Positions 19,697 to 51,418 of a stretch of DNA of 64,000 nt are shown one piece after another. The DNA is from Planctomycetota bacterium (GTDB lineage Bacteria; Planctomycetota; PLA2), in the NCBI GenBank assembly GCA_021776785.1, contig JAJFFF010000044.1, positions 282,230 through 346,229 of the forward strand, read 5' to 3'. Below the pieces are notes generated by a model. That model ran no database searches. It was given only the letters and a program-made list of their open reading frames with translations, and had not been told where the DNA came from. The position numbers and the translations under genes were made by a program. Position 1 is the stretch's first letter, and every line of letters starts with the position of its first letter.

Positions 19697-20092
19697 ATGC
19701 GTTCTTCTCAATTTCTCCTCCCCCTCCTCCCGATCCTGCTGGCAGCATGCGAACCGTCGCCGGAGACCCCCAAAGACTCCTCCGACGGCGAACAGGCAAC
19801 AGCGCAGCGGCCTGTCGTTCGTTACTACGTCCTCTCCGAGTCGTGACCGTTTTGCCAAAAGGTCGTAGTTGCGATCAACAAAATCAAACCTGACTTTTCG
19901 GACCGTGTGGACTTCGAGATCCTCGACGCCAATTCGGTCGCCGGCAAAGCCGCTTCCGCCAAGCACGGTTGGGATTTGGGCCCGCGCCACGGCATCGCGA
20001 TGGAGCGCGGGGACGAAGTCCTCAACAGCCTGTCCGGCCACAGCTATGGCGAGCAACACATTCGCGACATGATCGAAGTGGGGCTCTCATAG
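19697..20092 (+). CDS. Thioredoxin-fold (redox_disulf_1/Thioredoxin_3-like) lipoprotein with an in-frame TGA at the first Cys of the CxxC motif. Candidate selenoprotein (UxxC), alternatively a nonsense pseudogene.
   Basis: ATG at 19697 opens MRSSQFLLPLLPILLAACEPSP... (lipobox LAAC) ...RPVVRYYVLSES-[TGA 19844-19846]-PFCQKVVVAINKIKPDFSDRVDFEILDANSVAGKAASAKHGWDLGPRHGIAMERGDEVLNSLSGHSYGEQHIRDMI, stopping at TAG 20090. The part after the TGA aligns to the archaeal/bacterial small thioredoxin family (kIevFtSptCPyC...idVEkiDimvd...AieyGimaVPaiaiNGvv...GaPs.eel), with U in place of the first Cys. Confidence 0.5.
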
Positions 20093-24467: not shown

Positions 24468-25967
24468 CTAGCGACAGGAGTAGGTTTCGTCCGTCAGTGC
24501 GTCTGCGATCACGACAACGCGACGCAAGTGCGGTCCGGTGTCTCCGCCTTCGCCGCCTGCGAGCACCGTGAGGCCGTTGCGATCCACAAAGCCGATGTGC
24601 GCGCCCATCGCGATGGGTAGCTCGACATTGCGCACGGTATAGACGATGGCGTCCGGCAAACCAAACGAACCGGAAGGTAGGTAGTCAACGATCTCGAGCG
24701 AGCGGATCGGCGGAGATCCGGGCTCAGAAATGCGGAGTCCTCCCGCCGCGAGAAAGCGGCGTCCGGTGCCGTCACGCGGCGTCAGAGAAAACGCACCGCG
24801 ACGATCGCGCAAAAGATCTCGCGCGAAAAAGGACCCGTTCGACGAGAAGTCATAGACGACGATTGAGCGTGTGTCACCGCCGACGATGAGGAGTCGGTCC
24901 GCGTCAACCCGGTGCGCTTCCGCGCGAAATCGAATGTCGCCCTCGGGTCGAGACTGGATCTCAAGGCCCGTAAAACGAGCCGCTGTGCTCTCCAAGTTGC
25001 CAACGCCGAAGTACACCTCGAAATCGCCATGCAAAAACTGCACATGCTGGGCCGATGCCACAGGCAACGGGTGCCCGAAATCGGTCCATTCGATCGCGTC
25101 CAGCACCTCCACGCTGTCGAGGCGTTCGCCCGCGGCGTCAAACCCGCCGGACACCATCACCTCCAAGCCGCTGGCGAAAAGGGATGCCGCATGCCAGCGA
25201 CGGGCGGTAAGAAGTTCGGCTGAGGGAGCGAAGTTGCCCGACGCGGGATCAAAAATTTCCGTGGAAGCCAACGGCGCTCCGCCGACCGTGGACACTCCGC
25301 CCACGATCAACACACGACCGTTCGGCAAAAGCGTCAGCGTGTGCTCGGCGCGCGGCACCATCATCTTGGACGTATGCACCGAAAAACTAAGCGTCGCCGG
25401 GTCCCAGATTTCGACCGTATCCGTCGCGTCGGTCTCGTCGATGAACCCGCCGAAAATCATGAACCGCCCATCACGCAGCCGAATACCCCGCGCGAATGCG
25501 CGTCCGACGTTGAGCCGGTCTCCCAGATCAAGGAGCTGATCGGGGCGTACGGTCGGCGTCGCGCTTTCGGTGATGAAACAGATGCGCTGGGCCGCGGCGA
25601 GGGGCGAGCCCGCTGCGCTCGTGACGCCGACACCCACGATGAGCTCGTACTCGGTGTTCGGTTCGAGCGACTCGATCGGCTCGACGCGCGCCGTCGAGGA
25701 GTTAAACGCCTGCGTCTCGACGCGAATCCCAACCGGGGCCCCGCCGAATGGCTGGAGGCGAATGTTGGCCGCCGTGAGCGTGTTCAGGTCCGCGGACTGC
25801 GAAAACGTAATCGCCACGCCGTTCGCGATGCCAGCCGTTGTGTCGCCGTTCTCAGGCACGGTCGCGAACAAGGTGAACCCCGTCGCACCGCCGCCGTCCG
25901 AGCCACCACCACCACCGCCCCCACAGGCGGCAGCGCAGACAAATCCCATGATGAAGACAAATCGCAT
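24468..25967 (-). CDS. Kelch-repeat beta-propeller lipoprotein with an N-terminal Ig-like domain
   Basis: Start at 25967 gives MRFVFIMGFVCAAACGGGGGGGSDGG (lipobox). An Ig-like region (GIANGVAITFSQSADLNTLTAANIRLQ...EPNTEYELIVGVGVTSAAGSPL) is followed by repeated ...DGRxxxxGG...D..E.WDP... Kelch-like blades. Confidence 0.65.
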   Translation of the reverse strand: MRFVFIMGFVCAAACGGGGGGGSDGGGATGFTLFATVPENGDTTAGIANGVAITFSQSADLNTLTAANIRLQPFGGAPVGIRVETQAFNSSTARVEPIESLEPNTEYELIVGVGVTSAAGSPLAAAQRICFITESATPTVRPDQLLDLGDRLNVGRAFARGIRLRDGRFMIFGGFIDETDATDTVEIWDPATLSFSVHTSKMMVPRAEHTLTLLPNGRVLIVGGVSTVGGAPLASTEIFDPASGNFAPSAELLTARRWHAASLFASGLEVMVSGGFDAAGERLDSVEVLDAIEWTDFGHPLPVASAQHVQFLHGDFEVYFGVGNLESTAARFTGLEIQSRPEGDIRFRAEAHRVDADRLLIVGGDTRSIVVYDFSSNGSFFARDLLRDRRGAFSLTPRDGTGRRFLAAGGLRISEPGSPPIRSLEIVDYLPSGSFGLPDAIVYTVRNVELPIAMGAHIGFVDRNGLTVLAGGEGGDTGPHLRRVVVIADALTDETYSCR

Positions 25968-26066
25968 CTTCCCTCGATCTCTCAAACTTGCGGCCCGCCC
26001 GCCCGTTATAACGGATCGCACCCCGCGGGACAGGCTCGAATTCGGACCACACGAGAAGCGAACCCA

Positions 26067-27293
26067 ATGATGTCTACATACCGAACCATTTCCAACCCGG
26101 GCGGAAGGCCGATCAAAGCGTGGACGCATGGCGTTCCGGTCGATGAGAAGGCGATCCAACAGCTCCAAAACGTCGGCCAGCTCCCCATCATCCACCGCTG
26201 GGTCGCGGCGATGCCCGATGTCCATTGGGGAATCGGCGCGACCGTCGGCAGCGTCATTCCGACCGTGAAAGCGATTATCCCCGCGGCCGTCGGCGTCGAC
26301 ATCGGCTGCGGCATGATGGCCGTGCGCACGACGCTATCGGCGTCCGACCTTCCCGACGATCTGCGCGGTATTCGGCACGCGATGGAAAAAGCGGTCCCCC
26401 ACGGGCGCACGGATCGCGGCGGAAAAAACGATCGCGGGTCGTGGTCGAACACACCGGCCGTCGCCGAGAAGCGTTGGAAAAAACTCCGCGCCGGATACAA
26501 GGAAATCACCGAGCGTCACCCGTCCCTCGACCGCGGCAAGACTCTTGAACAACTCGGCACGTTGGGCACCGGCAATCACTTCATCGAAGTCTGCCTCGAC
26601 CAGGAAAACGCCGTGTGGCTCATGCTGCACAGCGGATCGCGCGGCGTCGGCAATCGCATCGGTCAGCACTTCATTCGGTTGGCCAAAAAAGACATGCAGG
26701 GCCATCTGAGCCAGCTTCCCGACGAAGACCTCGCGTATTTCTCGGAGGGCTCGGATCACTTTCATGACTACGTCGCTGCCGTCGATTGGGCGCAGCGATT
26801 TGCGCGGACCAATCGCGAGCTCATGATGGAAGCGACGTTGGCGGCGCTGCAACGGCGCAAAGACCTCCCGAAGTTTCAGGCCGACAAGCTTGCGGTGAAC
26901 TGCCACCACAACTACGTCGCGCAGGAGCACCACTATGGCAAAGACGTCTTCGTGACCCGCAAGGGGGCGGTGAGCGCGGCGGTCGGTGAACTCGGGATCA
27001 TTCCCGGCAGCATGGGCGCGCGCTCCTACATCGTCTCGGGCAAAGGGCACGCGGAGAGTTTTTGCTCGTGCAGCCACGGCGCCGGGCGCGCACTCTCGCG
27101 GACGCAAGCCAAGCGGCAATTCACAGTCGCCGATCACGAACGGGCGACGGCGGGCGTCGAGTGCCGCAAGGATGCCGCCGTCATCGACGAAACGCCGGCC
27201 GCGTATAAGGACATCGAGGCCGTGATGGCCGCACAATCCGATCTCGTCGAGATTCTGTACACGCTCAAGCAGGTCGTGTGCGTAAAGGGGTAG
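26067..27293 (+). CDS. rtcB: RNA-splicing ligase RtcB
   Basis: PDVHWGIGATVGSV, GCGMMAV, GTGNHFIEV and CSHGAGRALSRTQA are the conserved RtcB metal- and GTP-binding blocks. 408 aa from ATG 26067. Confidence 0.9.
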   Translation: MMSTYRTISNPGGRPIKAWTHGVPVDEKAIQQLQNVGQLPIIHRWVAAMPDVHWGIGATVGSVIPTVKAIIPAAVGVDIGCGMMAVRTTLSASDLPDDLRGIRHAMEKAVPHGRTDRGGKNDRGSWSNTPAVAEKRWKKLRAGYKEITERHPSLDRGKTLEQLGTLGTGNHFIEVCLDQENAVWLMLHSGSRGVGNRIGQHFIRLAKKDMQGHLSQLPDEDLAYFSEGSDHFHDYVAAVDWAQRFARTNRELMMEATLAALQRRKDLPKFQADKLAVNCHHNYVAQEHHYGKDVFVTRKGAVSAAVGELGIIPGSMGARSYIVSGKGHAESFCSCSHGAGRALSRTQAKRQFTVADHERATAGVECRKDAAVIDETPAAYKDIEAVMAAQSDLVEILYTLKQVVCVKG

Positions 27294-27410
27294 TTGCCTC
27301 CCTTGGTTTTTGCCGCGCTCGTTGAACCGATGCGGTGACCGCGGGGATCATAAGAATGCTACGGCGAGCAAGACCCCGATTCGTGGGCATCCTCGCCATC
27401 GGCCGCCACA

Positions 27411-30203
27411 ATGAACGACCCGGCTTCTTCTCCTGATGCGCTGCTCGCGCACACCGAATTCGTGCGCGCGCTCGCACGGCGGCTCCTCCGCGACGAGCAC
27501 GGCGCGGAGGACGTCACACAGCAAACGATGCTGGCCGCGCTCGAGTCGCCGCCGCGGGATCACACGAAGTGGCGACCGTGGCTCAGTCGCGTCACCCGCA
27601 ACTTCGCGTTTCGCTCCCGGCGGGATGCGACACGTCGGCGGCGGTGGGAGACGGCCGGTGCAAAACCGATTGATATTCCGTCGCCCCAAGACATCCGCGA
27701 TCGCGAAGCGGCGCGGCGCGACGTCGTCGAGGCGGTGCTGCAGTTGGCAGAGCCGTATCGAACCACCATCATCTTGCGATATTTGGAAGAGTTGCCGCCG
27801 CGGGATGTCGCACGGCGGATGAACGCACCTGTCGAAACGGTGCGTACGCGCACGCGCCGCGCGGTCGAACAACTGCGCAACACGCTGGAACAAGAACCGA
27901 CGCGGGATTGGCGAGCGGGGCTCGCGCTTCTGGCGACGCCCAAAGCATGGGGAGCGATTGCGATGTCCGCAAAATCGAAGTGGATCGGTGCTGCAGTGGG
28001 AGCGCTTTTGCTTGCGCTCATTCCGGTTTGGATGGCCTATCGGCACCAGCCTGGAAGCGGTGACCGCGCCGAACGTACGACGGCCGAGCGGGCCACGCCC
28101 CTCGACACGTCAACGACCGCCCCGCCAACGTCGACATCGGCGTCGACGGACGTGGCCACCGGCATCGAAGGCGTCGTCCGCGGGCCGAGCGGCCCGATCG
28201 CGGACGCGTTCGTGGTGCTTGTGGACGGCGGCGACAAGGTCGCGCGACGACGTACGACCGCGACCGGCCGCTTCGCGTTTAAGCAAACGGGAACGTTTGA
28301 CGTCATCGCCGCGCATCCCGACTACCAGCCCGGTGCCGCGACCGTGACCGCGGAGGGCAAGAGCGCCACACGCGTCGACCTCGTTCTGAAGGCCAGCGAT
28401 CCCATCGCGTTCCGCGTGACCGACGGTTCGACCAAGAGAGTTCTCGACGACGTCGAAGTCTTGGTCATCGTCTCGGGCGACGCTACGAACGCGGCGCTCG
28501 AAACGCTGCTCGCCGAAGGCGGTTTGTGGAAACTGATCCCGCGGCTAAGTGTCTACGACTCGTTGATGGATGCGTTCGCTGGACTGCGCGGGAGCGGTGT
28601 CGTTTACATCCCGCCGATCAAGACGTCAAACGGCGTGGCGCACCTGCGCGGTCTTCTGCCGCGTGGCCGCTTCCAGGCCATCGTCAGCCGACACGGCTAC
28701 GCGCCGCTCCTGGTTACGCGCGACGCCATCGGGGATCAGCTGGACGTCACGCTGCAACCGCAGTCCACGCTGCGCGTCACCGCCCCCAACATCGACGGCC
28801 AACCGGCGGTGGGAGCGTGGTGCGAAGTCAACCGGCCCGGGTTGTTTCTGCCCATGCCGGTCAATCGCGCGCAGTTCGACGAAAACGGTCGCGTCGAGTT
28901 CGGCGAGCTCAGTGCCGGGCTGTATGAGGTCATCGTGTCGCGCGACGGCACGTGGGCGCTGGGCGCAAAGGCTCCCAACGCCGACAGTCAGGGCCGAGTC
29001 TCGGTCGGACGCAACGCGACCGCCATCCTTGCGCAGCGCCGCGTCGAGCTGGCCCCAAATCAAACCCACACAGTTCACTTCGGCGGCCCGGAAACCGGTC
29101 GGATCGTCGGCACGATCGCGGCCGGCGATGGCGGCGCGATGATCAACAAGGTGTGGCAAGTGCGGCTGCGACGAGATGACAACGACGTCGCGACAACCAA
29201 CGCCAAAGACGGAAAGTTCGTCTTCGAGAGCGTGGCGCCTGGTTCGTACCGTGTTGTCGCCACCGCATTGGCGAGCGGCGCGAGCGTGACGACCGACGTG
29301 GCGGTGCGTGCGGGGTCGGGCGATACCGTTGTCTCGTTGCGCGCCGAGTCCGGCGGCGTGCGCGGCTCGGTGCGAGGTCGCAACGGTCAACCGTTGCCGG
29401 GAGCGCGCATGCTGATTCTCCGCTATGACGTAGCCCGCACACTGGCACGTCAAGACCCGCGCGGAACCAACGAAGTGTTGTCGCTTCTCTCGCGTGGTTT
29501 TGAGAGCGATCGCAACGGTCGGTTTGAGCGGCCCATGACGGCGGGTCACTACGTCGTTTTTGCGGCAAACGACGGATCCGCGGATTTTCGCGAGGTGCAC
29601 ATCAAAGCAAACGCGCAGACCGAGGTCGCGCTCGATCTGAGTCCGGCCCGTGTCTTCCCGGTCGCGCTCGAGCTCGTTGATCGGGACAAACCCGTCGCGG
29701 GCCACATCTTTCTCCGCGGTTATCTCGGTGGATTCGTGCTCGCGTTTCTCCTGGACGAGGACGCCATGGCTCCCGACGCCAAGCCGATCACCGCGCGGCG
29801 CTATCGACTGCCGAAGGGGCGCTACTTGCTCAACGTTATGGCGCCCGGCCGCGCGCCGATCCTCCAACTTCCGATTCACACGACCGGCGCGTACTCGCTT
29901 CGCATACCCGTCGCCCGCGGCGTGTCGGCAACGCTCACGCTGACCGAAAACGACGCGCCCTTGCGCCACGTCGACCTCGCCCTGCAAACGGCGCTGGGAA
30001 CGACCGTCCATCGCGCGGGCCACCCCGCCGCGCTGTTCGCGCGCAGCCACGGCTGGCGTACCGACAACGCCGGTACGCTTGTGATCCCTTGCCTGCTGCC
30101 CGGCCGCTACGTGCTTCTCCGCCAGGACCGAAAGATCGCATCATTTCGCGTCACCGACGAGCCCCTGACGACTCGGATCGCCCTGGCCGCTCCGCCACGC
30201 TAG
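27411..30203 (+). CDS. ECF (sigma-70 group IV) sigma factor fused in-frame to a transmembrane anti-sigma-like segment and a ~700-aa extracytoplasmic region with CarboxypepD_reg-like beta-sandwich repeats
   Basis: N-terminal 170 aa: EDVTQQTMLAAL (region 2) and RYLEELPPRDVARRMNAPVETVRTRTRRAVEQLR (region 4 HTH). Then the TM helix WIGAAVGALLLALIPVWMAY. Then IEGVVRGPSGPIADAFVVLVDG...GRFAF and further repeats. A single uninterrupted 930-aa ORF. Confidence 0.7.
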   Translation: MNDPASSPDALLAHTEFVRALARRLLRDEHGAEDVTQQTMLAALESPPRDHTKWRPWLSRVTRNFAFRSRRDATRRRRWETAGAKPIDIPSPQDIRDREAARRDVVEAVLQLAEPYRTTIILRYLEELPPRDVARRMNAPVETVRTRTRRAVEQLRNTLEQEPTRDWRAGLALLATPKAWGAIAMSAKSKWIGAAVGALLLALIPVWMAYRHQPGSGDRAERTTAERATPLDTSTTAPPTSTSASTDVATGIEGVVRGPSGPIADAFVVLVDGGDKVARRRTTATGRFAFKQTGTFDVIAAHPDYQPGAATVTAEGKSATRVDLVLKASDPIAFRVTDGSTKRVLDDVEVLVIVSGDATNAALETLLAEGGLWKLIPRLSVYDSLMDAFAGLRGSGVVYIPPIKTSNGVAHLRGLLPRGRFQAIVSRHGYAPLLVTRDAIGDQLDVTLQPQSTLRVTAPNIDGQPAVGAWCEVNRPGLFLPMPVNRAQFDENGRVEFGELSAGLYEVIVSRDGTWALGAKAPNADSQGRVSVGRNATAILAQRRVELAPNQTHTVHFGGPETGRIVGTIAAGDGGAMINKVWQVRLRRDDNDVATTNAKDGKFVFESVAPGSYRVVATALASGASVTTDVAVRAGSGDTVVSLRAESGGVRGSVRGRNGQPLPGARMLILRYDVARTLARQDPRGTNEVLSLLSRGFESDRNGRFERPMTAGHYVVFAANDGSADFREVHIKANAQTEVALDLSPARVFPVALELVDRDKPVAGHIFLRGYLGGFVLAFLLDEDAMAPDAKPITARRYRLPKGRYLLNVMAPGRAPILQLPIHTTGAYSLRIPVARGVSATLTLTENDAPLRHVDLALQTALGTTVHRAGHPAALFARSHGWRTDNAGTLVIPCLLPGRYVLLRQDRKIASFRVTDEPLTTRIALAAPPR

Positions 30204-39372: not shown

Positions 39373-40359
39373 TTAGCCAGAGGTTGCGATCGCAATCGCG
39401 CCTTCTCCCGGCTGCACTTTGCTTTTCACGCCGTCCTTGTCGGACTGCGCGTCCTTCGGCAGCAGACCGCCGTGCTTCTTGCGCAAGCGCTCCAGCATTT
39501 TCTCCGGATTCTCTGGCGCTTCGCCAATCGTGCCCTCGGTCGGTCCGCGACGCGTTCCGAAAAACGATCGGCCACGGCCGACGAAATCGGTGCTGTCGTA
39601 CCGTTCGATTTCAAGCAGCGGTCGCTTGGCGACAAAACGGTAGTCCGCCAGCGTGCGACGCTTGGCCCAGTCGCTGAGCGGGCCGCTAAACTCCCGTCGC
39701 TGCGCGTCGCGGATGCGAGCCTGCATGCGCTCGACGAGTCGGTCCGTGTCCGCGGTCGCCGGGGTCGCCGCCTTCTCCAACATCTGGATGGAGCCGAGCG
39801 CGAAGCGCAGTTCGTCGGCGAGCGTCTTCGGGCCGACGTAACCACTGAGCGCATGAACGATGCGACCGCGCGGCGTCAGAACGAGCAGCTGGACGTTCTT
39901 TTCGCCGTTGCCGCGAATGCACGTGCCCGCGGCCGACTTCGGTGCGTGCGCGAAACTCGAACCGGCATCGGGGTCGCCGTTTGTGTTAAGCCATGCACAC
40001 ACAAACTTGGTCTTGAGAAGGCGCGCGACATCGGGGTCTGAGAACGACACGGTCCTCAGGGTGTGCCCGGCGCTTCACGTCTTGCCGACGAGGTCGCCGA
40101 GCAAGCGCAAGTACACGATCGGGCGCGCGCGCCGCGGCGAGGACGCGAGCTTGCGGGCCTGCGCGAGCGGGTACCACTTGGTGCCGGCCCAAACCACGGG
40201 CTTAGCCGGAGTCGCGGTCGTCCGCGACGCCGACGTGGGCTGCGGGCAGTCTGCCGGCGCGTTCGATCGCGATTTCTTGGCAGACGGCGTCGCCAGAGCG
40301 GTCGCCGCACAAACGACGAGGCCCAAAGTAACGCGAGAGAGTTGGTGTCGGGTATGCAT
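39373..40359 (-). CDS. Secreted DUF255 (YyaL/SPATA20 N-terminal thioredoxin-like) protein with an in-frame TGA at the position of the first Cys of CxxC. Candidate selenoprotein, alternatively a disrupted gene.
   Basis: ATG at 40359 gives MHTRHQLSRVTLGLVVCAATALA (signal) ...KPVVWAGTKWYPLAQARKLASSPRRARPIVYLRLLGDLVGKT-[TGA 40077..40075]-SAGHTLRTVSFSDPDVARLLKTKFVCAWLNTNGDPD... This aligns with DUF255 nPVdWypW..AfekAr...KPIflsiGYstCHWCHvMe.eSFeDeevArlLNehFVsIKVD. The two track ORFs (40075..40494 and 39373..40050) are in the same frame, separated only by this TGA. Confidence 0.45.
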
Positions 40360-40460
40360 AGCAACGTGGATACGCGACCGACGAGCCGTTTGCTCCCGGC
40401 ACTTGCGAACCAGCTTCCGGTGCCCCGAAAATCGCCTGCATTCGCTATCATGCCGCGCAG

Positions 40461-40997
40461 ATGAGCGATCAGGGCCCAGGCGATTCCGCAACATTCGACT
40501 CCGCGCAGCAGTGGATCGACAGGCTCGATCTCGTTCCGCTCGATCCGGAGGGCGGGTATTACCGCGAGGTTTTTCGATCCGACGAATCCGTCGCCAAGCT
40601 CCCCTACCGCTATGCGGGCAAGCGCGACTACTACACGTCGATCTATTACCTCGTGACGCCCGAAAACTTCTCGACGCTGCACCGCCTCGCTACCGATGAG
40701 ATTTTTGTGGCCATTGCGGGCGACCCGGTCGAGATGCTTCAGCTCTTCGAAACCGGCGTCGGACGCACGATTCGCATCGGCAACTCCGGCGCCGCTGACG
40801 TCGAACCGCAGGTCTGCGTCCCGCGCCGCGTGTGGCAGGGGTTGTCACTTGCGGAAGGCGGCCGGTTTGCGCTCTTCGCCGTCTTCGTCGCACCGGGGTT
40901 TGATCCGATGGACTACGAGACCGGCAAACGCAGCGTGCTTACCGAAACGTACCCCGCATTCGCGGAACACATCGCACGTCTTACGCGGGAGCCCTAA
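40461..40997 (+). CDS. Cupin-domain protein (DUF985/cupin_5 family)
   Basis: LDPEGGYYREVFRS...YTSIYYLV...HRLATDEIF is typical of DUF985 cupins. Confidence 0.6.
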   Translation: MSDQGPGDSATFDSAQQWIDRLDLVPLDPEGGYYREVFRSDESVAKLPYRYAGKRDYYTSIYYLVTPENFSTLHRLATDEIFVAIAGDPVEMLQLFETGVGRTIRIGNSGAADVEPQVCVPRRVWQGLSLAEGGRFALFAVFVAPGFDPMDYETGKRSVLTETYPAFAEHIARLTREP

Positions 40998-50159: not shown

Positions 50160-50281
50160 GCTAGAATAGGCTCTGTCTGAAGTGTCGCGATGCGGCCGGC
50201 TGTGTCGCCGCGGGTCTTCGCCCTGTGAGGGCTCGCCCGCCCGCGGTGCGACGGTGAGTGTTTAGACGGAGACGAACGCCC

Positions 50282-50602
50282 ATGGTCCAACGAATCGCGA
50301 ACGAAGAACAACTCGCGGCCGCGCTCGCCGCGCCGAGCTTTCTCTTGTTTAAGCACTCCGACCGGTGCTCGATCAGCACGCGCGCCGAAACCGAGTTTCA
50401 CGCGTTCCTTAAGGCCCATCCGGAAATCAACGCCGGCTGGATCCACGTGATCGACGAGCGGCCGCTATCCCTTAGGTTCGCGGAGCAATCGGGCGTGACC
50501 CACGCTTCGCCGCAAGCCGTGTGGCTCAAAAACGGCAGACCGGTCTGGAACGCCAGCCACTTCGATATCACCCAGGCCGCGCTCGCGGACGCCTGCTCGT
50601 AA
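50282..50602 (+). CDS. YtxJ-family (DUF2847) monothiol thioredoxin-like protein
   Basis: FLLFKHSDRCSISTRAETEF (conserved T/S-x-x-C motif in KHS.RCSIS) and AVWLKNGRPVWNASHFDIT. Confidence 0.6.
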   Translation: MVQRIANEEQLAAALAAPSFLLFKHSDRCSISTRAETEFHAFLKAHPEINAGWIHVIDERPLSLRFAEQSGVTHASPQAVWLKNGRPVWNASHFDITQAALADACS

Positions 50603-50626: not shown

Positions 50627-51418
50627 ATGTTCCGGCCAACTGGTACCGTATTCGGGATGGAGCACCATCCGTTCAACAAGACGCTTGCGTACGAGGATCT
50701 GCGTGAGCCGGCGATCGCCCCGACGTACCGCAACCTGCAGCGTTGGGTGTGGGGTTGGTTTTTGCGCGGCTATCGGCTCGGCGTCAACGGGGCCAGTCGG
50801 CGGCGCGTCCGCGTGCGCCCGCAAAAGATGTGGGAGTATTCCCGCGGCTTGGCGCTCACGAACACGTCCGCGCTCACGCGGCCGACGGGCGAAAAGTACA
50901 AGGTGCTCGACGTCGGCGGTGCGATGACGATGCCGCTCTTTTATCTCGGCGACTTGGGCGACAAGGTCGTCTCGTTGGACATCCATCCCGAACTGACCGC
51001 CGAGACCAACCGCGTCGCGAAGAAAGCGAAGCTCGACGTGACCGGCCTCACGACGAACTTGGTCGAGGAGGATCCTTCGCCCAAAGACCTCGGCGCCGAC
51101 GGCGGTTTCGATTTCGCGTTTTGTTTCTGCGTGATCGAGCACATCGTTCCGCCGGGACAAGGGCGTGTCGCCGAGCGCATGGGCAAGCTCCTCAAGCCCG
51201 GCGGCAAGATGGTGATCACGTTCGACTACGGCGCGAACGCCGGCTCCGAGGCGCCGATTCCTACGCTCGCCGAAGTGCACGAGTTGCGCGACACGATTGG
51301 GTTGCCGCTTCTGGACAACCAAGAGTTTCACGACGACGGCCGGCGTTACCCGATTTCGCGGCGCAACCCGGACAAGCCGTTCACGTTCGGTTCGTTGTTT
51401 TTTCAAAAGCCCAGCTAG
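50627..51418 (+). CDS. Class I SAM-dependent methyltransferase
   Basis: KVLDVGGAMTMPLFYLGDLGDKVVSLDI (motif I) and FDFAFCFCVIEH (motif II/III). Confidence 0.6.
   Translation: MFRPTGTVFGMEHHPFNKTLAYEDLREPAIAPTYRNLQRWVWGWFLRGYRLGVNGASRRRVRVRPQKMWEYSRGLALTNTSALTRPTGEKYKVLDVGGAMTMPLFYLGDLGDKVVSLDIHPELTAETNRVAKKAKLDVTGLTTNLVEEDPSPKDLGADGGFDFAFCFCVIEHIVPPGQGRVAERMGKLLKPGGKMVITFDYGANAGSEAPIPTLAEVHELRDTIGLPLLDNQEFHDDGRRYPISRRNPDKPFTFGSLFFQKPS

What the first reader, a model, noticed from the sequence alone, without database searches (positions are those of the whole stretch)
39373..40359. Second in-frame TGA at the catalytic-Cys position of a secreted DUF255 thioredoxin-like protein
Two minus-strand track ORFs (40075..40494 and 39373..40050) are in the same frame and separated only by TGA (40077..40075). 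Joined, they read ...KPVVWAGTKWYPLAQARKLASSPRRARPIVYLRLLGDLVGKT-[TGA]-SAGHTLRTVSFSDPDVARLLKTKFVCAWLN..., which aligns to the DUF255/YyaL N-domain (PVdWypW...KPIflsiGYstCHWCHvMe.eSFeDeevArlLNehFVsIKVD). The TGA falls on the first Cys of CHWC, and the second Cys is Gly here. The protein has an N-terminal signal peptide. This is a second, independent thioredoxin-fold gene with a stop codon at the redox-active Cys in the same 64-kb window, so systematic Sec recoding is more likely than two coincidental nonsense mutations. A possible stem (CUGAG...CUCAG) starts about 16 nt downstream of the UGA.
Basis: partly seen in the sequence, partly recalled or inferred. Interest (0 to 1): 0.75.

Follow-up and report, generated by a model that had tools for sequence, protein, structure and literature searches.

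The report
Uncatalogued secreted thioredoxin-fold selenoprotein gene
The apparent stop codon inside this gene is almost certainly read as selenocysteine, which makes the gene one member of a widespread, apparently uncatalogued family of secreted redox proteins in Planctomycetota and Verrucomicrobiota that gene callers routinely cut in two.

Summary
On the minus strand, one TGA (40077..40075) joins two in-frame ORFs into a 328-codon gene (40359..39373).

- **Conservation of the TGA:** all 26 related loci I could read as DNA (3 metagenome contigs, 23 MAGs of Planctomycetota and Verrucomicrobiota) carry TGA at the same codon. Protein sequence is conserved on both sides.
- **Family-wide truncation:** of 152 family representatives, 118 start 6 or 9 codons after this site. 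Only 4 read through it (3 Cys, 1 Tyr). A further search found 15 full-length Cys-form clusters.
- **Cys counterpart:** these Cys forms carry TGC at that codon.
- **Hairpin:** a 6-bp stem with a CGUGWC loop lies 17 nt after the UGA and meets the published bacterial SECIS constraints. Its synonymous sites are invariant in 27/27 genes. It is absent from Cys forms.
- **Annotation status:** no Pfam or NCBIfam model reaches threshold, and the family is not among 119 catalogued selenoprotein families.

Selenocysteine machinery is not in the window and could not be tested. Verdict: a real selenoprotein gene and a new family of a known kind.

The parts
39373..40359 (-). Whole selenoprotein gene: 328 codons with Sec at codon 95. 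Start is ATG 40359..40357 and stop is TAA 39375..39373.
   Evidence: Single open frame apart from one TGA. Homologues are conserved on both sides of the TGA. Cys forms are single uninterrupted ORFs.
40288..40359 (-). Predicted signal peptide: MHTRHQLSR, then VTLGLVVCAATALA, then a likely cleavage after ALA.
   Evidence: Hydropathy about 2.2 over residues 10-23. All 26 homologous upstream ORFs also begin with a hydrophobic leader. Inference only; no dedicated predictor was available.
40075..40077 (-). In-frame UGA, read as selenocysteine (Sec95).
   Evidence: TGA in 27/27 loci. TGC (Cys) in the full-length homologues L029, L032 and L034. Aligns to the first Cys of CxxC in 3ira and DsbD-gamma.
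40038..40059 (-). SECIS-like hairpin. The conserved core is GAGGAC-CGUGUC-GUUCUC (40057..40040), extended in the window to 8 bp by CU/AG. The loop starts 23 nt after the UGA.
   Evidence: It is the minimum-free-energy structure in the window and in 21/27 loci. Third-codon positions of ACC GTG WCG TTC are invariant in 27/27, and the Arg codon is only AGR. RNAalifold gives the same 6 bp. It is absent from Cys forms. It meets the bSECIS constraints quoted in PMC13188914.
39769..40209 (-). Thioredoxin-fold domain (about residues 51-197). Sec sits at the N-terminus of the active-site helix, followed by the conserved motifs AG.S..H, G.C.RG.G, N.Q and LTP. Boundaries are approximate.
39376..39768 (-). 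C-terminal helical region (conserved D.RF....PLL and VG...FFG motifs) followed by a poorly conserved charged tail. Boundaries are approximate.
   Evidence: Helices 157-266 in the P0122 model. Conserved columns D136, P144, L145, G158 and F164 of P0001. No Pfam or NCBIfam match.

Best explanation
Window 40359..39373 (minus strand) is one gene for a secreted protein of about 33 kDa. Its codon 95, UGA, is most likely decoded as selenocysteine.

**Recoding (inferred from the standard bacterial mechanism).** A hairpin inside the coding sequence has the stem GAGRAC/GUUCUC and the loop CGUGWC, with the loop starting 23 nt after the UGA. It would serve as the bacterial SECIS element. It would recruit SelB carrying Sec-tRNA(Sec) to the ribosome paused at UGA, so that translation continues.

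**The protein (shown by modelling a Cys-form homologue).** After the signal peptide it has a thioredoxin fold of the DsbD-gamma / DsbH / DUF255 type. Sec sits at the N-terminus of the active-site helix, at the position of the nucleophilic first Cys of CxxC. The second, resolving Cys is Gly (motif U-S-A-G-H), so an internal CxxC-type disulfide cannot form.

**Chemistry (inferred).** The protein would act as a single-selenol redox protein in the periplasm. Sec would attack an oxidised substrate, such as a disulfide, sulfenate or peroxide. The resulting selenenylsulfide or selenenic acid would be resolved either by a partner thiol or by one of the family's conserved cysteines: Cys147 in G-T-C-I-R-G, or Cys121.

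**Context.** In most relatives, Sec and Cys forms alike, the gene is the third in a cassette of ECF sigma factor, then a FecR-domain anti-sigma-like protein, then this gene. The family therefore probably belongs to an envelope stress or redox response. The window's copy is stand-alone.

**Shown versus inferred.** Shown: the conserved UGA, Cys at that codon in homologues, the constrained hairpin, the fold, and the synteny in relatives. Inferred: actual Sec insertion, secretion, and the chemistry.
For: - **Conserved TGA.** TGA is at the same codon in 27/27 loci with DNA: the window, L001, L002, L005 and 23 MAG loci. The MAG loci were found with peptide patterns that do not include that codon.
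- **Conserved upstream ORFs.** In-frame upstream ORFs of 88-461 codons carry signal peptides and the motif P(I/V)..(F/L)R.LG(D/E)L.G.(M/T)-U-SAGHT.
- **Family-wide truncation.** The search found 313 representatives at E<=1e-3. Of 152 sequences examined, 118 start 6 or 9 codons after the site, 3 read through with Cys and 1 with Tyr.
- **Cys forms.** 15 full-length Cys-form clusters have GPM-C-SA[SA]H.MR. The codon is TGC in the three Cys-form loci read as DNA.
- **RNA-level constraint.** Codons +8 to +11 (ACC GTG WCG TTC) have zero synonymous variation in 27/27. Arg+7 is AGA or AGG in 27/27, although AGR makes up 4.3% of Arg codons in the window's long ORFs, and the invariant Arg at -10 is CGN in 26/27. 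The neighbouring invariant residues A+2, G+3, T+5 and S+12 each use 3-4 codons.
- **Wobble-compatible change.** The only variable stem position switches between A-U and G-U, 17:10.
- **Cys forms lack the hairpin.** They use CGG/CGC and GTC/GTA there.
- **SECIS fit.** 6-bp stem, 6-nt loop with G then U at positions 2-3, 23 nt spacing, and MFE from -7.6 to -14.6 kcal/mol for UGA+42 nt. All lie within the consensus bSECIS limits quoted in PMC13188914.
- **TGA is still a stop.** It ends 9 of 40 window genes and ends the family gene itself in 9 loci.
- **Active-site alignment.** The U column falls on the first Cys of CxxC.
- **Synteny.** ECF sigma and FecR-domain genes precede the gene in relatives.
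- **Sec use in the phylum.** Planctomycetes with complete selA/selB/selC/selD sets are documented (PMC4807772).
Against: - No selA, selB, selD or tRNA-Sec lies in the 64-kb window or in any fetched locus. The rest of the genome could not be searched, so Sec competence of this organism is unproven.
- The hairpin has no compensatory double changes. Five of its six core pairs never vary, and the two outer pairs are kept in only 9/27 and 17/27 sequences. Support therefore comes from synonymous-site conservation, not covariation.
- Folding energies of 63-nt segments are not better than shuffled controls (z from -1.07 to +0.84).
- The UGA-to-loop spacing is about 5 nt longer than in E. coli fdhF. 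This comparison rests on my own knowledge.
- The structure was modelled on a Cys-form homologue about 28% identical to the window protein, not on the window protein itself.
- Sequence matches to DUF255 and DsbD are below significance.
- The window's copy lacks the sigma/FecR cassette, so the functional context is borrowed from relatives.
Confidence: 0.87

Rival explanations
1. These are two genuine genes. The TGA is a true stop that ends a small secreted N-terminal protein. A second protein starts at the ATG six codons downstream (CTG in the window, so GTG at +9 there). The hairpin would serve translational coupling or regulation.
For: Gene callers annotate the locus this way in essentially every record: 118 of 152 representatives start at +6 or +9. 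An ATG is present at +6 in 22/27 loci and GTG at +9 in 27/27. No Sec machinery has been shown for this genome.
Against: - The split would cut a thioredoxin fold between strand beta2 and the active-site helix.
- The downstream product would have no signal peptide.
- In the window, L001, L002, L005 and L006 the +6 codon is CTG, not a start.
- Fifteen Cys-form clusters are single ORFs with Cys exactly at the TGA column.
- The stop is always TGA, never TAA or TAG, in 27/27 loci.
- The hairpin disappears exactly when TGA is replaced by TGC.
Confidence: 0.05
2. The UGA is read through or recoded to a standard amino acid, for example Cys or Trp by near-cognate decoding stimulated by the hairpin. A full-length protein is made without selenium.
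For: A conserved UGA with a downstream hairpin would also fit stimulated read-through. Selenium incorporation and Sec machinery were not tested here. Cys works at this position in homologues.
Against: - The hairpin fits all four published bSECIS constraints, including G-U at loop positions 2-3.
- The codon sits at a redox-active Cys position in a thioredoxin fold, the most common setting for bacterial Sec (PMC13188914).
- If Cys were the product, TGC would be simpler. Yet about 97% of representatives that reach the site keep the stop.
- Related phyla are documented Sec users.
Confidence: 0.06
3. The gene is a pseudogene, inactivated by a nonsense mutation in this genome.
For: A single in-frame stop is what a recent nonsense mutation looks like when only one genome is seen.
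Against: The same TGA is present in 27/27 loci from two phyla. The proteins are only 28-58% identical, yet are conserved on both sides of the TGA. There are no frameshifts or extra stops.
Confidence: 0.01

Closest known systems
DsbD C-terminal (gamma) domain and related exported cytochrome-c-biogenesis thioredoxin domains (PDB 2fwf, 1vrs, 1uc7, 3f9u)
   Different: There is no second Cys (Gly instead), so the CxxC disulfide exchange that defines DsbD-gamma is impossible. The protein is soluble and secreted, not fused to a membrane domain. It has an extra helical C-terminal region of about 100 residues. It uses Sec. Sequence similarity is not significant (E 0.18-0.8).
Pfam PF03190 Thioredox_DsbH / DUF255 (YyaL/SPATA20 N-domain; PDB 3ira, 7tkv; Chlamydia DsbH 2ju5)
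   Different: All scores are below the gathering cut-off (13-21 bits against 27). The second Cys is Gly. The GGWP cis-Pro position appears to be an invariant Asn, judged from sequence comparison only. There is no YyaL-type C-terminal barrel. The family is nearly always Sec.
[quoted passage not shown]
   Same: Same kind of object: Sec replaces a redox Cys at the N-terminus of the active-site helix of a thioredoxin fold, it is encoded by UGA with an in-ORF bSECIS, rare Cys homologues exist, and annotation splits the gene.
   Different: The motif is U-x-x-G-H, with no partner Cys or Thr in the motif. No NCBIfam selenoprotein model matches at E<=1, and none of the Pfam models used for those families reaches threshold. 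The family is linked to ECF sigma / FecR cassettes.
E. coli fdhF-type bacterial SECIS
   Same: A hairpin inside the ORF just 3' of the UGA, with a short upper stem and a small apical loop carrying G-U. It falls within the consensus limits for loop, stem, spacing and energy.
   Different: The sequence is unrelated. The loop G-U lies at nt 28-29 from the U of UGA, against 23-24 in fdhF (the fdhF numbers are from my own knowledge). There is no bulged U, and the lower stem is not conserved.

Membership tests
Bacterial selenoprotein gene (Sec-UGA plus bSECIS) | In-frame UGA conserved at the same codon in orthologues, with coding conservation on both sides | tested here: met
   27/27 loci have TGA. 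Upstream and downstream protein sequence is conserved.
Bacterial selenoprotein gene (Sec-UGA plus bSECIS) | Homologues with Cys aligned to the UGA codon | tested here: met
   15 full-length clusters have ...GPM-C-SA[SA]H.MR. TGC was confirmed in L029, L032 and L034.
Bacterial selenoprotein gene (Sec-UGA plus bSECIS) | Downstream hairpin within the bSECIS consensus: loop 3-9 nt, stem 4-16 bp, G in the first two loop positions, 16-37 nt from UGA to loop, MFE <= -7.5 kcal/mol (PMC13188914) | tested here: met
   6-bp stem (8 bp in the window), loop CGUGWC, 23 nt spacing, MFE from -7.6 to -14.6 in 27/27. Support comes from invariant synonymous sites, not from covariation.
Bacterial selenoprotein gene (Sec-UGA plus bSECIS) | selA, selB, selD and tRNA-Sec present in the same genome | not testable with these tools
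   None in the 64-kb window or in the fetched loci. The trait is documented in the phylum (PMC4807772).
Bacterial selenoprotein gene (Sec-UGA plus bSECIS) | Selenium actually incorporated at the UGA position | not testable with these tools
   Needs 75Se labelling or mass spectrometry.
Thioredoxin-fold superfamily | Beta-alpha-beta ... beta-beta-alpha core, with the redox residue at the N-terminus of the helix that follows the central strand | tested here: met
Pfam PF03190 Thioredox_DsbH (DUF255) | Score at or above the Pfam gathering cut-off (27 bits) | tested here: not met
   17.7 bits for the window protein. 20.7, 13.3 and 17.7 bits for P0116, P0122 and P0128.
Pfam PF03190 Thioredox_DsbH (DUF255) | C-x-x-C(H) redox motif | tested here: not met
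   The motif is U-S-A-G-H. The first Cys is replaced by Sec, the second by Gly, and the His is kept. The second position is Gly, Ala or Ser across the family.
Pfam PF03190 Thioredox_DsbH (DUF255) | YyaL/SPATA20-type architecture with a large C-terminal alpha-barrel domain | tested here: not met
DsbD gamma domain | CxxC pair that shuttles electrons, fused to the DsbD membrane domain | tested here: not met
   There is no second Cys and no membrane domain. The only hydrophobic segment is the N-terminal leader.
Any selenoprotein family with an NCBIfam model (most of the 119 in PMC13188914 Table 1) | Match to the family HMM | tested here: not met
   Zero NCBIfam hits at E<=1 for the joined window protein and three Cys forms. 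No DsbD-, DsbH- or DUF255-type entry and no U-x-x-G-H motif appears in the table. These terms are also absent from the BSepDB paper.

The most novel reading that the evidence does not exclude
This family may not be a housekeeping oxidoreductase. It may instead be the periplasmic sensing or partner subunit of an ECF sigma / FecR-type anti-sigma signalling module. A single selenol, with no resolving Cys in its motif, would form a reversible selenenylsulfide or selenenic acid in response to envelope oxidants. That change would control release of the sigma factor. If true, it would be the first selenoprotein placed in a bacterial sigma-factor signal transduction pathway. It would also explain why Sec is kept in about 97% of members.
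Probability: 0.15. Interest if true: 0.8.

Novelty: new member of a known kind. Interest (0 to 1): 0.55.

Why it matters
- **Annotation.** A family with at least 313 sequence clusters at 50% identity is systematically mis-annotated as two hypothetical proteins, or as a truncated one. It occurs across Planctomycetota and Verrucomicrobiota from soil, groundwater, marine and host-associated metagenomes. Recognising the UGA as Sec repairs those annotations.
- **Catalogue.** It adds a family to the catalogue of bacterial selenoproteins, which stood at 119 families in 2026. It also extends the selenoproteome of two phyla that are little studied in this respect.
- **Chemistry.** The active site U-x-x-G-H sits in a DsbD-gamma/DUF255-like fold without a resolving Cys, and Sec is used almost exclusively. 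This makes the family a clean natural case for asking what selenium does that sulfur cannot do in a periplasmic single-residue redox site.
- **Function.** The conserved ECF sigma / FecR neighbourhood gives a directly testable functional hypothesis.
- **SECIS.** The very strongly conserved hairpin is a ready-made SECIS example for phyla whose SelB specificity has not been studied.

Tried and rejected
- **Rfam.** The window at gathering threshold gave no hits. The locus at E<=10 gave only chance hits (sX12, Guanidine-II and others, far below their thresholds).
- **ARAGORN.** No tRNA or tRNA-Sec in the window or in 27 loci.
- **First genome-contig scan.** Run with the three closest proteins, it gave 43 pattern matches but no relative. 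A 71-sequence alignment was too diverse for pattern design. A 5-sequence alignment starting just after the U then worked.
- **The search for homologous proteins.** The word index finds few members (3, 10 and 18 hits). The exhaustive representative search was needed to see the size of the family.
- **afdb50 fold library.** Unavailable.
- **Organism name.** Exact look-ups of window proteins returned no source names. Taxonomy is therefore inferred only from the phyla of homologue-bearing MAGs.
- **Codon-model and GC3 scoring around in-frame TGAs.** Too unspecific to single out this site or the other candidate.
- **Lower SECIS stem.** Individual folds pair GCNGG with sequence 3' of the hairpin in several loci, but it is not in register across the alignment. 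I do not claim it.
- **Genome-wide UGA reassignment.** Rejected, because TGA ends 9/40 window genes and 9 of the family genes themselves.
- **Sigma/FecR cassette in the window.** Home-made HMMs found only the sigma-fusion gene at 27354..30203, and no FecR-like gene.
Full report
**1. The observation**

On the minus strand, the frame that opens at ATG 40359 runs to TAA 39375..39373 with one interruption, TGA at 40077..40075.

The N-terminus (MHTRHQLSR, then VTLGLVVCAATALA, then TP) has the charge and hydropathy pattern of a signal peptide. The longer ORF start at 40494 would overlap the divergent Cupin_5 gene (40461..40997) and has no leader, so 40359 is the likely start.

The window has 63% G+C. 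TGA ends 9 of 40 confidently coding ORFs, so TGA is an ordinary stop here. The window contains no tRNA and nothing in Rfam.

**2. Comparative test of the TGA**

A word-indexed protein search found only the downstream half of the gene (P0001) and two metagenomic relatives. All were called as proteins of 190-230 aa that start just after the TGA.

In both contigs the reading frame continues upstream through a TGA at exactly the same codon. The upstream sequence is conserved and begins with a signal peptide. A metagenome scan added a fourth case.

A scan of one genome per species used peptide patterns that lie just after, or 30 residues after, the critical codon. It returned 23 loci, all MAGs:
- 19 from Planctomycetota (Pirellulaceae, Planctomycetaceae, Rubripirellula, Aureliella);
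- 4 from Verrucomicrobiota (Akkermansiaceae, Verrucomicrobiia).

All 23 have TGA at the site. Each is preceded by an in-frame ORF of 119-461 codons ending in ...(D)(R/K)P(I/V)..FR.LG.L.G.M. In total, 27 of 27 loci carry TGA. Nine of these genes also terminate with TGA, so one gene uses the codon in both senses.

**3. Size of the family and the Cys forms**

An exhaustive HMM search of 1.84 billion cluster representatives used the downstream half as query. It found 313 representatives at E<=1e-3 and 170 at E<=1e-10. The breakdown of the 152 sequences in hand is:

| Where the called protein begins | Count |
|---|---|
| Codon +6 after the TGA (MRTVSFS...) | 77 |
| Codon +9 ([MV]SFS...) | 41 |
| Further downstream | 30 |
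| Reads through the site with Cys | 3 |
| Reads through the site with Tyr (P0112, unexplained) | 1 |

Searching with the three Cys forms recovered 15 full-length clusters, all with ...FRHVGE..GPM-C-SA[SA]H.MR. Their DNA has TGC at that codon. A conserved in-frame UGA with Cys in homologues is the standard criterion for a selenoprotein gene, and it is met.

**4. The RNA element**

After the UGA the 27 genes read UGA AGY GCN GGN CAY ACN MUG AGR ACC GUG WCG UUC UCN.
- **Free third positions.** GCN, GGN, CAY, ACN and UCN use 2-4 codons each, although the amino acids are invariant.
- **Fixed third positions.** ACC, GUG, WCG and UUC never vary.
- **The Arg codon.** It is AGA (17) or AGG (10). AGR makes up 4.3% of Arg codons in the window's long ORFs. 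The invariant Arg eleven codons upstream of the UGA uses CGN in 26/27.

The fixed stretch is exactly a hairpin, GAGRAC-CGUGWC-GUUCUC. The A/G change keeps A-U or G-U. In the window it extends to 8 bp (40059..40038) and is the minimum-free-energy fold. It is part of the MFE fold in 21/27 genes.

Cys-form genes use CGG/CGC and GTC/GTA at these codons and cannot form the hairpin.

The element satisfies the published bacterial SECIS constraints (PMC13188914):

| Feature | Consensus limit | This element |
|---|---|---|
| Apical loop | 3-9 nt | 6 nt |
| Upper stem | 4-16 bp | 6-8 bp |
| G in first two loop positions | required | G at position 2, then U |
| UGA-to-loop spacing | 16-37 nt | 23 nt |
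| MFE | <= -7.5 kcal/mol | -7.6 to -14.6 kcal/mol |

Three caveats apply. There is no compensatory covariation, because the stem never varies. The outer two pairs are only partly kept. Energies of 63-nt segments do not beat shuffled controls. The case for the element therefore rests on synonymous-site conservation and on its strict association with TGA.

**5. The protein**

No Pfam or NCBIfam model reaches threshold. The only recurrent signal is a sub-threshold match to PF03190 (Thioredox_DsbH/DUF255) over the region around the U/C, seen in the window protein and in three Cys forms.

The joined window protein could not be submitted for modelling, so I modelled Cys-form P0122 with a 27-row alignment. 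The model has pLDDT 82.9 and pTM 0.80. It shows a thioredoxin-type beta-alpha-beta, then the active-site helix, then beta-beta-alpha, followed by a helical C-terminal region. Cys74 lies immediately before helix 76-86.

Structural matches:
- **Foldseek:** DsbD-gamma (2fwf and others, probability 1.0), 3ira (DUF255 domain) and 7tkv (Thioredox_DsbH protein).

A family profile aligned to the PDB sequences puts the U/C column on the first Cys of C-H-W-C-H in 3ira and of C-V-A-C in DsbD-gamma. Gly falls on the second Cys (E-values are weak, but the alignment agrees with the fold matches).

Membership of DUF255 is not established: the score is below the cut-off, there is no CxxC, and there is no YyaL-type C-terminal domain.

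Family-wide conserved residues are AG.S..H, N.Q, LTP and G. A Cys in G.C.RG.G is invariant in the full-length alignments and 60% conserved across the wider family. These are candidates for the active-site surroundings and for a resolving thiol. That is inference; I could not measure distances in the model.

**6. Context**

- **Window neighbours.** They are a divergent Cupin_5 gene, a downstream Peptidase_S9-like gene and an inositol monophosphatase. No selA, selB or selD is present anywhere in the 64 kb.
- **Relatives.** The gene is usually third in a same-strand cassette of ECF sigma factor (Sigma70_r2/r4_2), a FecR-domain protein of about 500 aa, and this gene. The cassette is present in 3/3 Cys-form loci and in at least 11 Sec-form MAG loci.
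- **SHD1-like module.** Many relatives carry one between the leader and the thioredoxin domain.
- **The window's clade.** The window, L001, L002 and L005 lack both the cassette and the SHD1-like module. L002 has a divergent ECF sigma / zf-HC2 pair instead. The window has no FecR-like gene.

**7. Mechanism and rivals**

The best explanation is SelB/SECIS-dependent insertion of Sec at codon 95 of a secreted single-selenol thioredoxin-fold protein. The protein is probably an envelope redox or stress factor. I put the selenoprotein call at about 0.87. The chemistry and physiological role are much less certain.

Rivals:
- **Two real genes.** The split would cut the fold. The +6 codon is CTG in five loci. 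The stop is only ever TGA. Cys forms are uninterrupted.
- **Read-through to a standard amino acid.** This cannot be excluded without selenium data. It does not explain the near-universal retention of UGA or the SECIS-type loop.
- **Pseudogene.** Excluded by conservation across two phyla.
- **Genome-wide reassignment of UGA.** Excluded by the use of TGA as a stop.

**8. Comparison with what is known**

Thioredoxin-fold selenoproteins with an in-ORF SECIS are the commonest kind of bacterial selenoprotein (PMC13188914). Planctomycetes with complete Sec machinery are documented (PMC4807772).

This particular family appears uncatalogued:
- it matches none of the NCBIfam selenoprotein models;
- it is not recognisable among the 119 families of the 2026 catalogue;
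- the terms DsbD, DUF255, Planctomycetota and Verrucomicrobiota do not occur in the BSepDB paper.

An unnamed 'hypothetical' split candidate reported in a Porphyra-associated planctomycete (S9 Table of PMC4807772) may be a member, but I could not check it. I therefore rate the finding as a new member (a new family) of a known kind, with moderate interest.

**9. Not settled**

- Whether this organism has Sec machinery.
- Whether the protein is exported.
- What the substrate or partner is.
- What the Tyr variant P0112 means.
- Whether the second TGA gene in the window (19697..20092, U-P-F-C) is also a selenoprotein. It has only weak thioredoxin-like matches and no clear SECIS.

Noticed in passing
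It is a 131-codon ORF with a lipoprotein-like leader (LLAAC) and ...RYYVLSES-[TGA]-PFC-QKVV..., a U-x-x-C motif. Only sub-threshold thioredoxin-like hits were found (Pfam Thioredoxin E=0.2; NCBIfam seleno_TsoX E=0.0013, SaoT E=0.034). The fold of the 67 nt after the UGA is not better than shuffles, and no clear consensus SECIS is seen. A 4-bp GUUG/CAAC stem with a CGAU loop 25 nt downstream is possible. No homologue comparison was done.
   Followed up: partly
L011, L013, L014, L015, L018, L020, L026, L028 (sigma and FecR both found); L009, L016, L023 (FecR only, the flank ends before any sigma gene); L029, L032, L034 (Cys forms): Relatives share a conserved same-strand cassette: an ECF sigma factor, a FecR-domain (anti-sigma-like) protein of about 500 aa, then the thioredoxin-fold (seleno)protein. 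Both Sec and Cys forms have it. The window lacks it.
   Followed up: yes
upstream ORFs of L008-L028 and P0116 residues 22-80: Many family members carry an extra module between the signal peptide and the thioredoxin domain, with the pattern W.D..G.F.V.A.L....V.L...G....V.L..LS..D..Y. It hits Pfam SHD1 weakly (E=0.007 in P0116). The window protein lacks it.
   Followed up: partly
P0112 (metagenomic protein, no DNA available): One family representative reads ...DVSNVV-Y-SASHTMRTVSFSS, with Tyr where all others have Sec (TGA) or Cys. It could be a real variant, a sequencing error or an over-extended ORF.
   Followed up: no
window 50258..50602 (+): A small ORF with ...FLLFKHSDRCSIS..., which by eye resembles a monothiol YtxJ/DUF2847-type thioredoxin-like protein with an ordinary Cys. 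It lies directly upstream of, and in frame with, a methyltransferase gene (50627..51418). No family search was run on it.
   Followed up: no
window 27411..30203 (+): A 930-aa protein that fuses an ECF-type sigma factor (Sigma70_r2/r4_2) N-terminally to CarboxypepD_reg and SdrD_B-like domains. This is an unusual sigma-fusion architecture. It is the only sigma-like gene in the window.
   Followed up: no
L024 1115..2500 (+): In this Planctomycetaceae MAG, the open frame upstream of the TGA runs 461 codons and includes a sigma-70-like region. Either a sigma/anti-sigma gene is fused in frame to the selenoprotein gene, or adjacent genes share a frame with no intervening stop.
   Followed up: no
PMC4807772, S9 Table: A 'hypothetical' selenoprotein candidate annotated as two genes (IMG 2643311185/2643311186) in planctomycete P1. 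It has a Cys homologue in Rhodopirellula sallentina and a predicted SECIS, so it may be an earlier unnamed sighting of this family.
   Followed up: no
window 25341..27293 (+): An RtcB RNA ligase domain occupies only residues 274-650 of the listed 650-aa ORF. Either the true start is far downstream, or there is an N-terminal extension of about 270 aa with no Pfam match.
   Followed up: no
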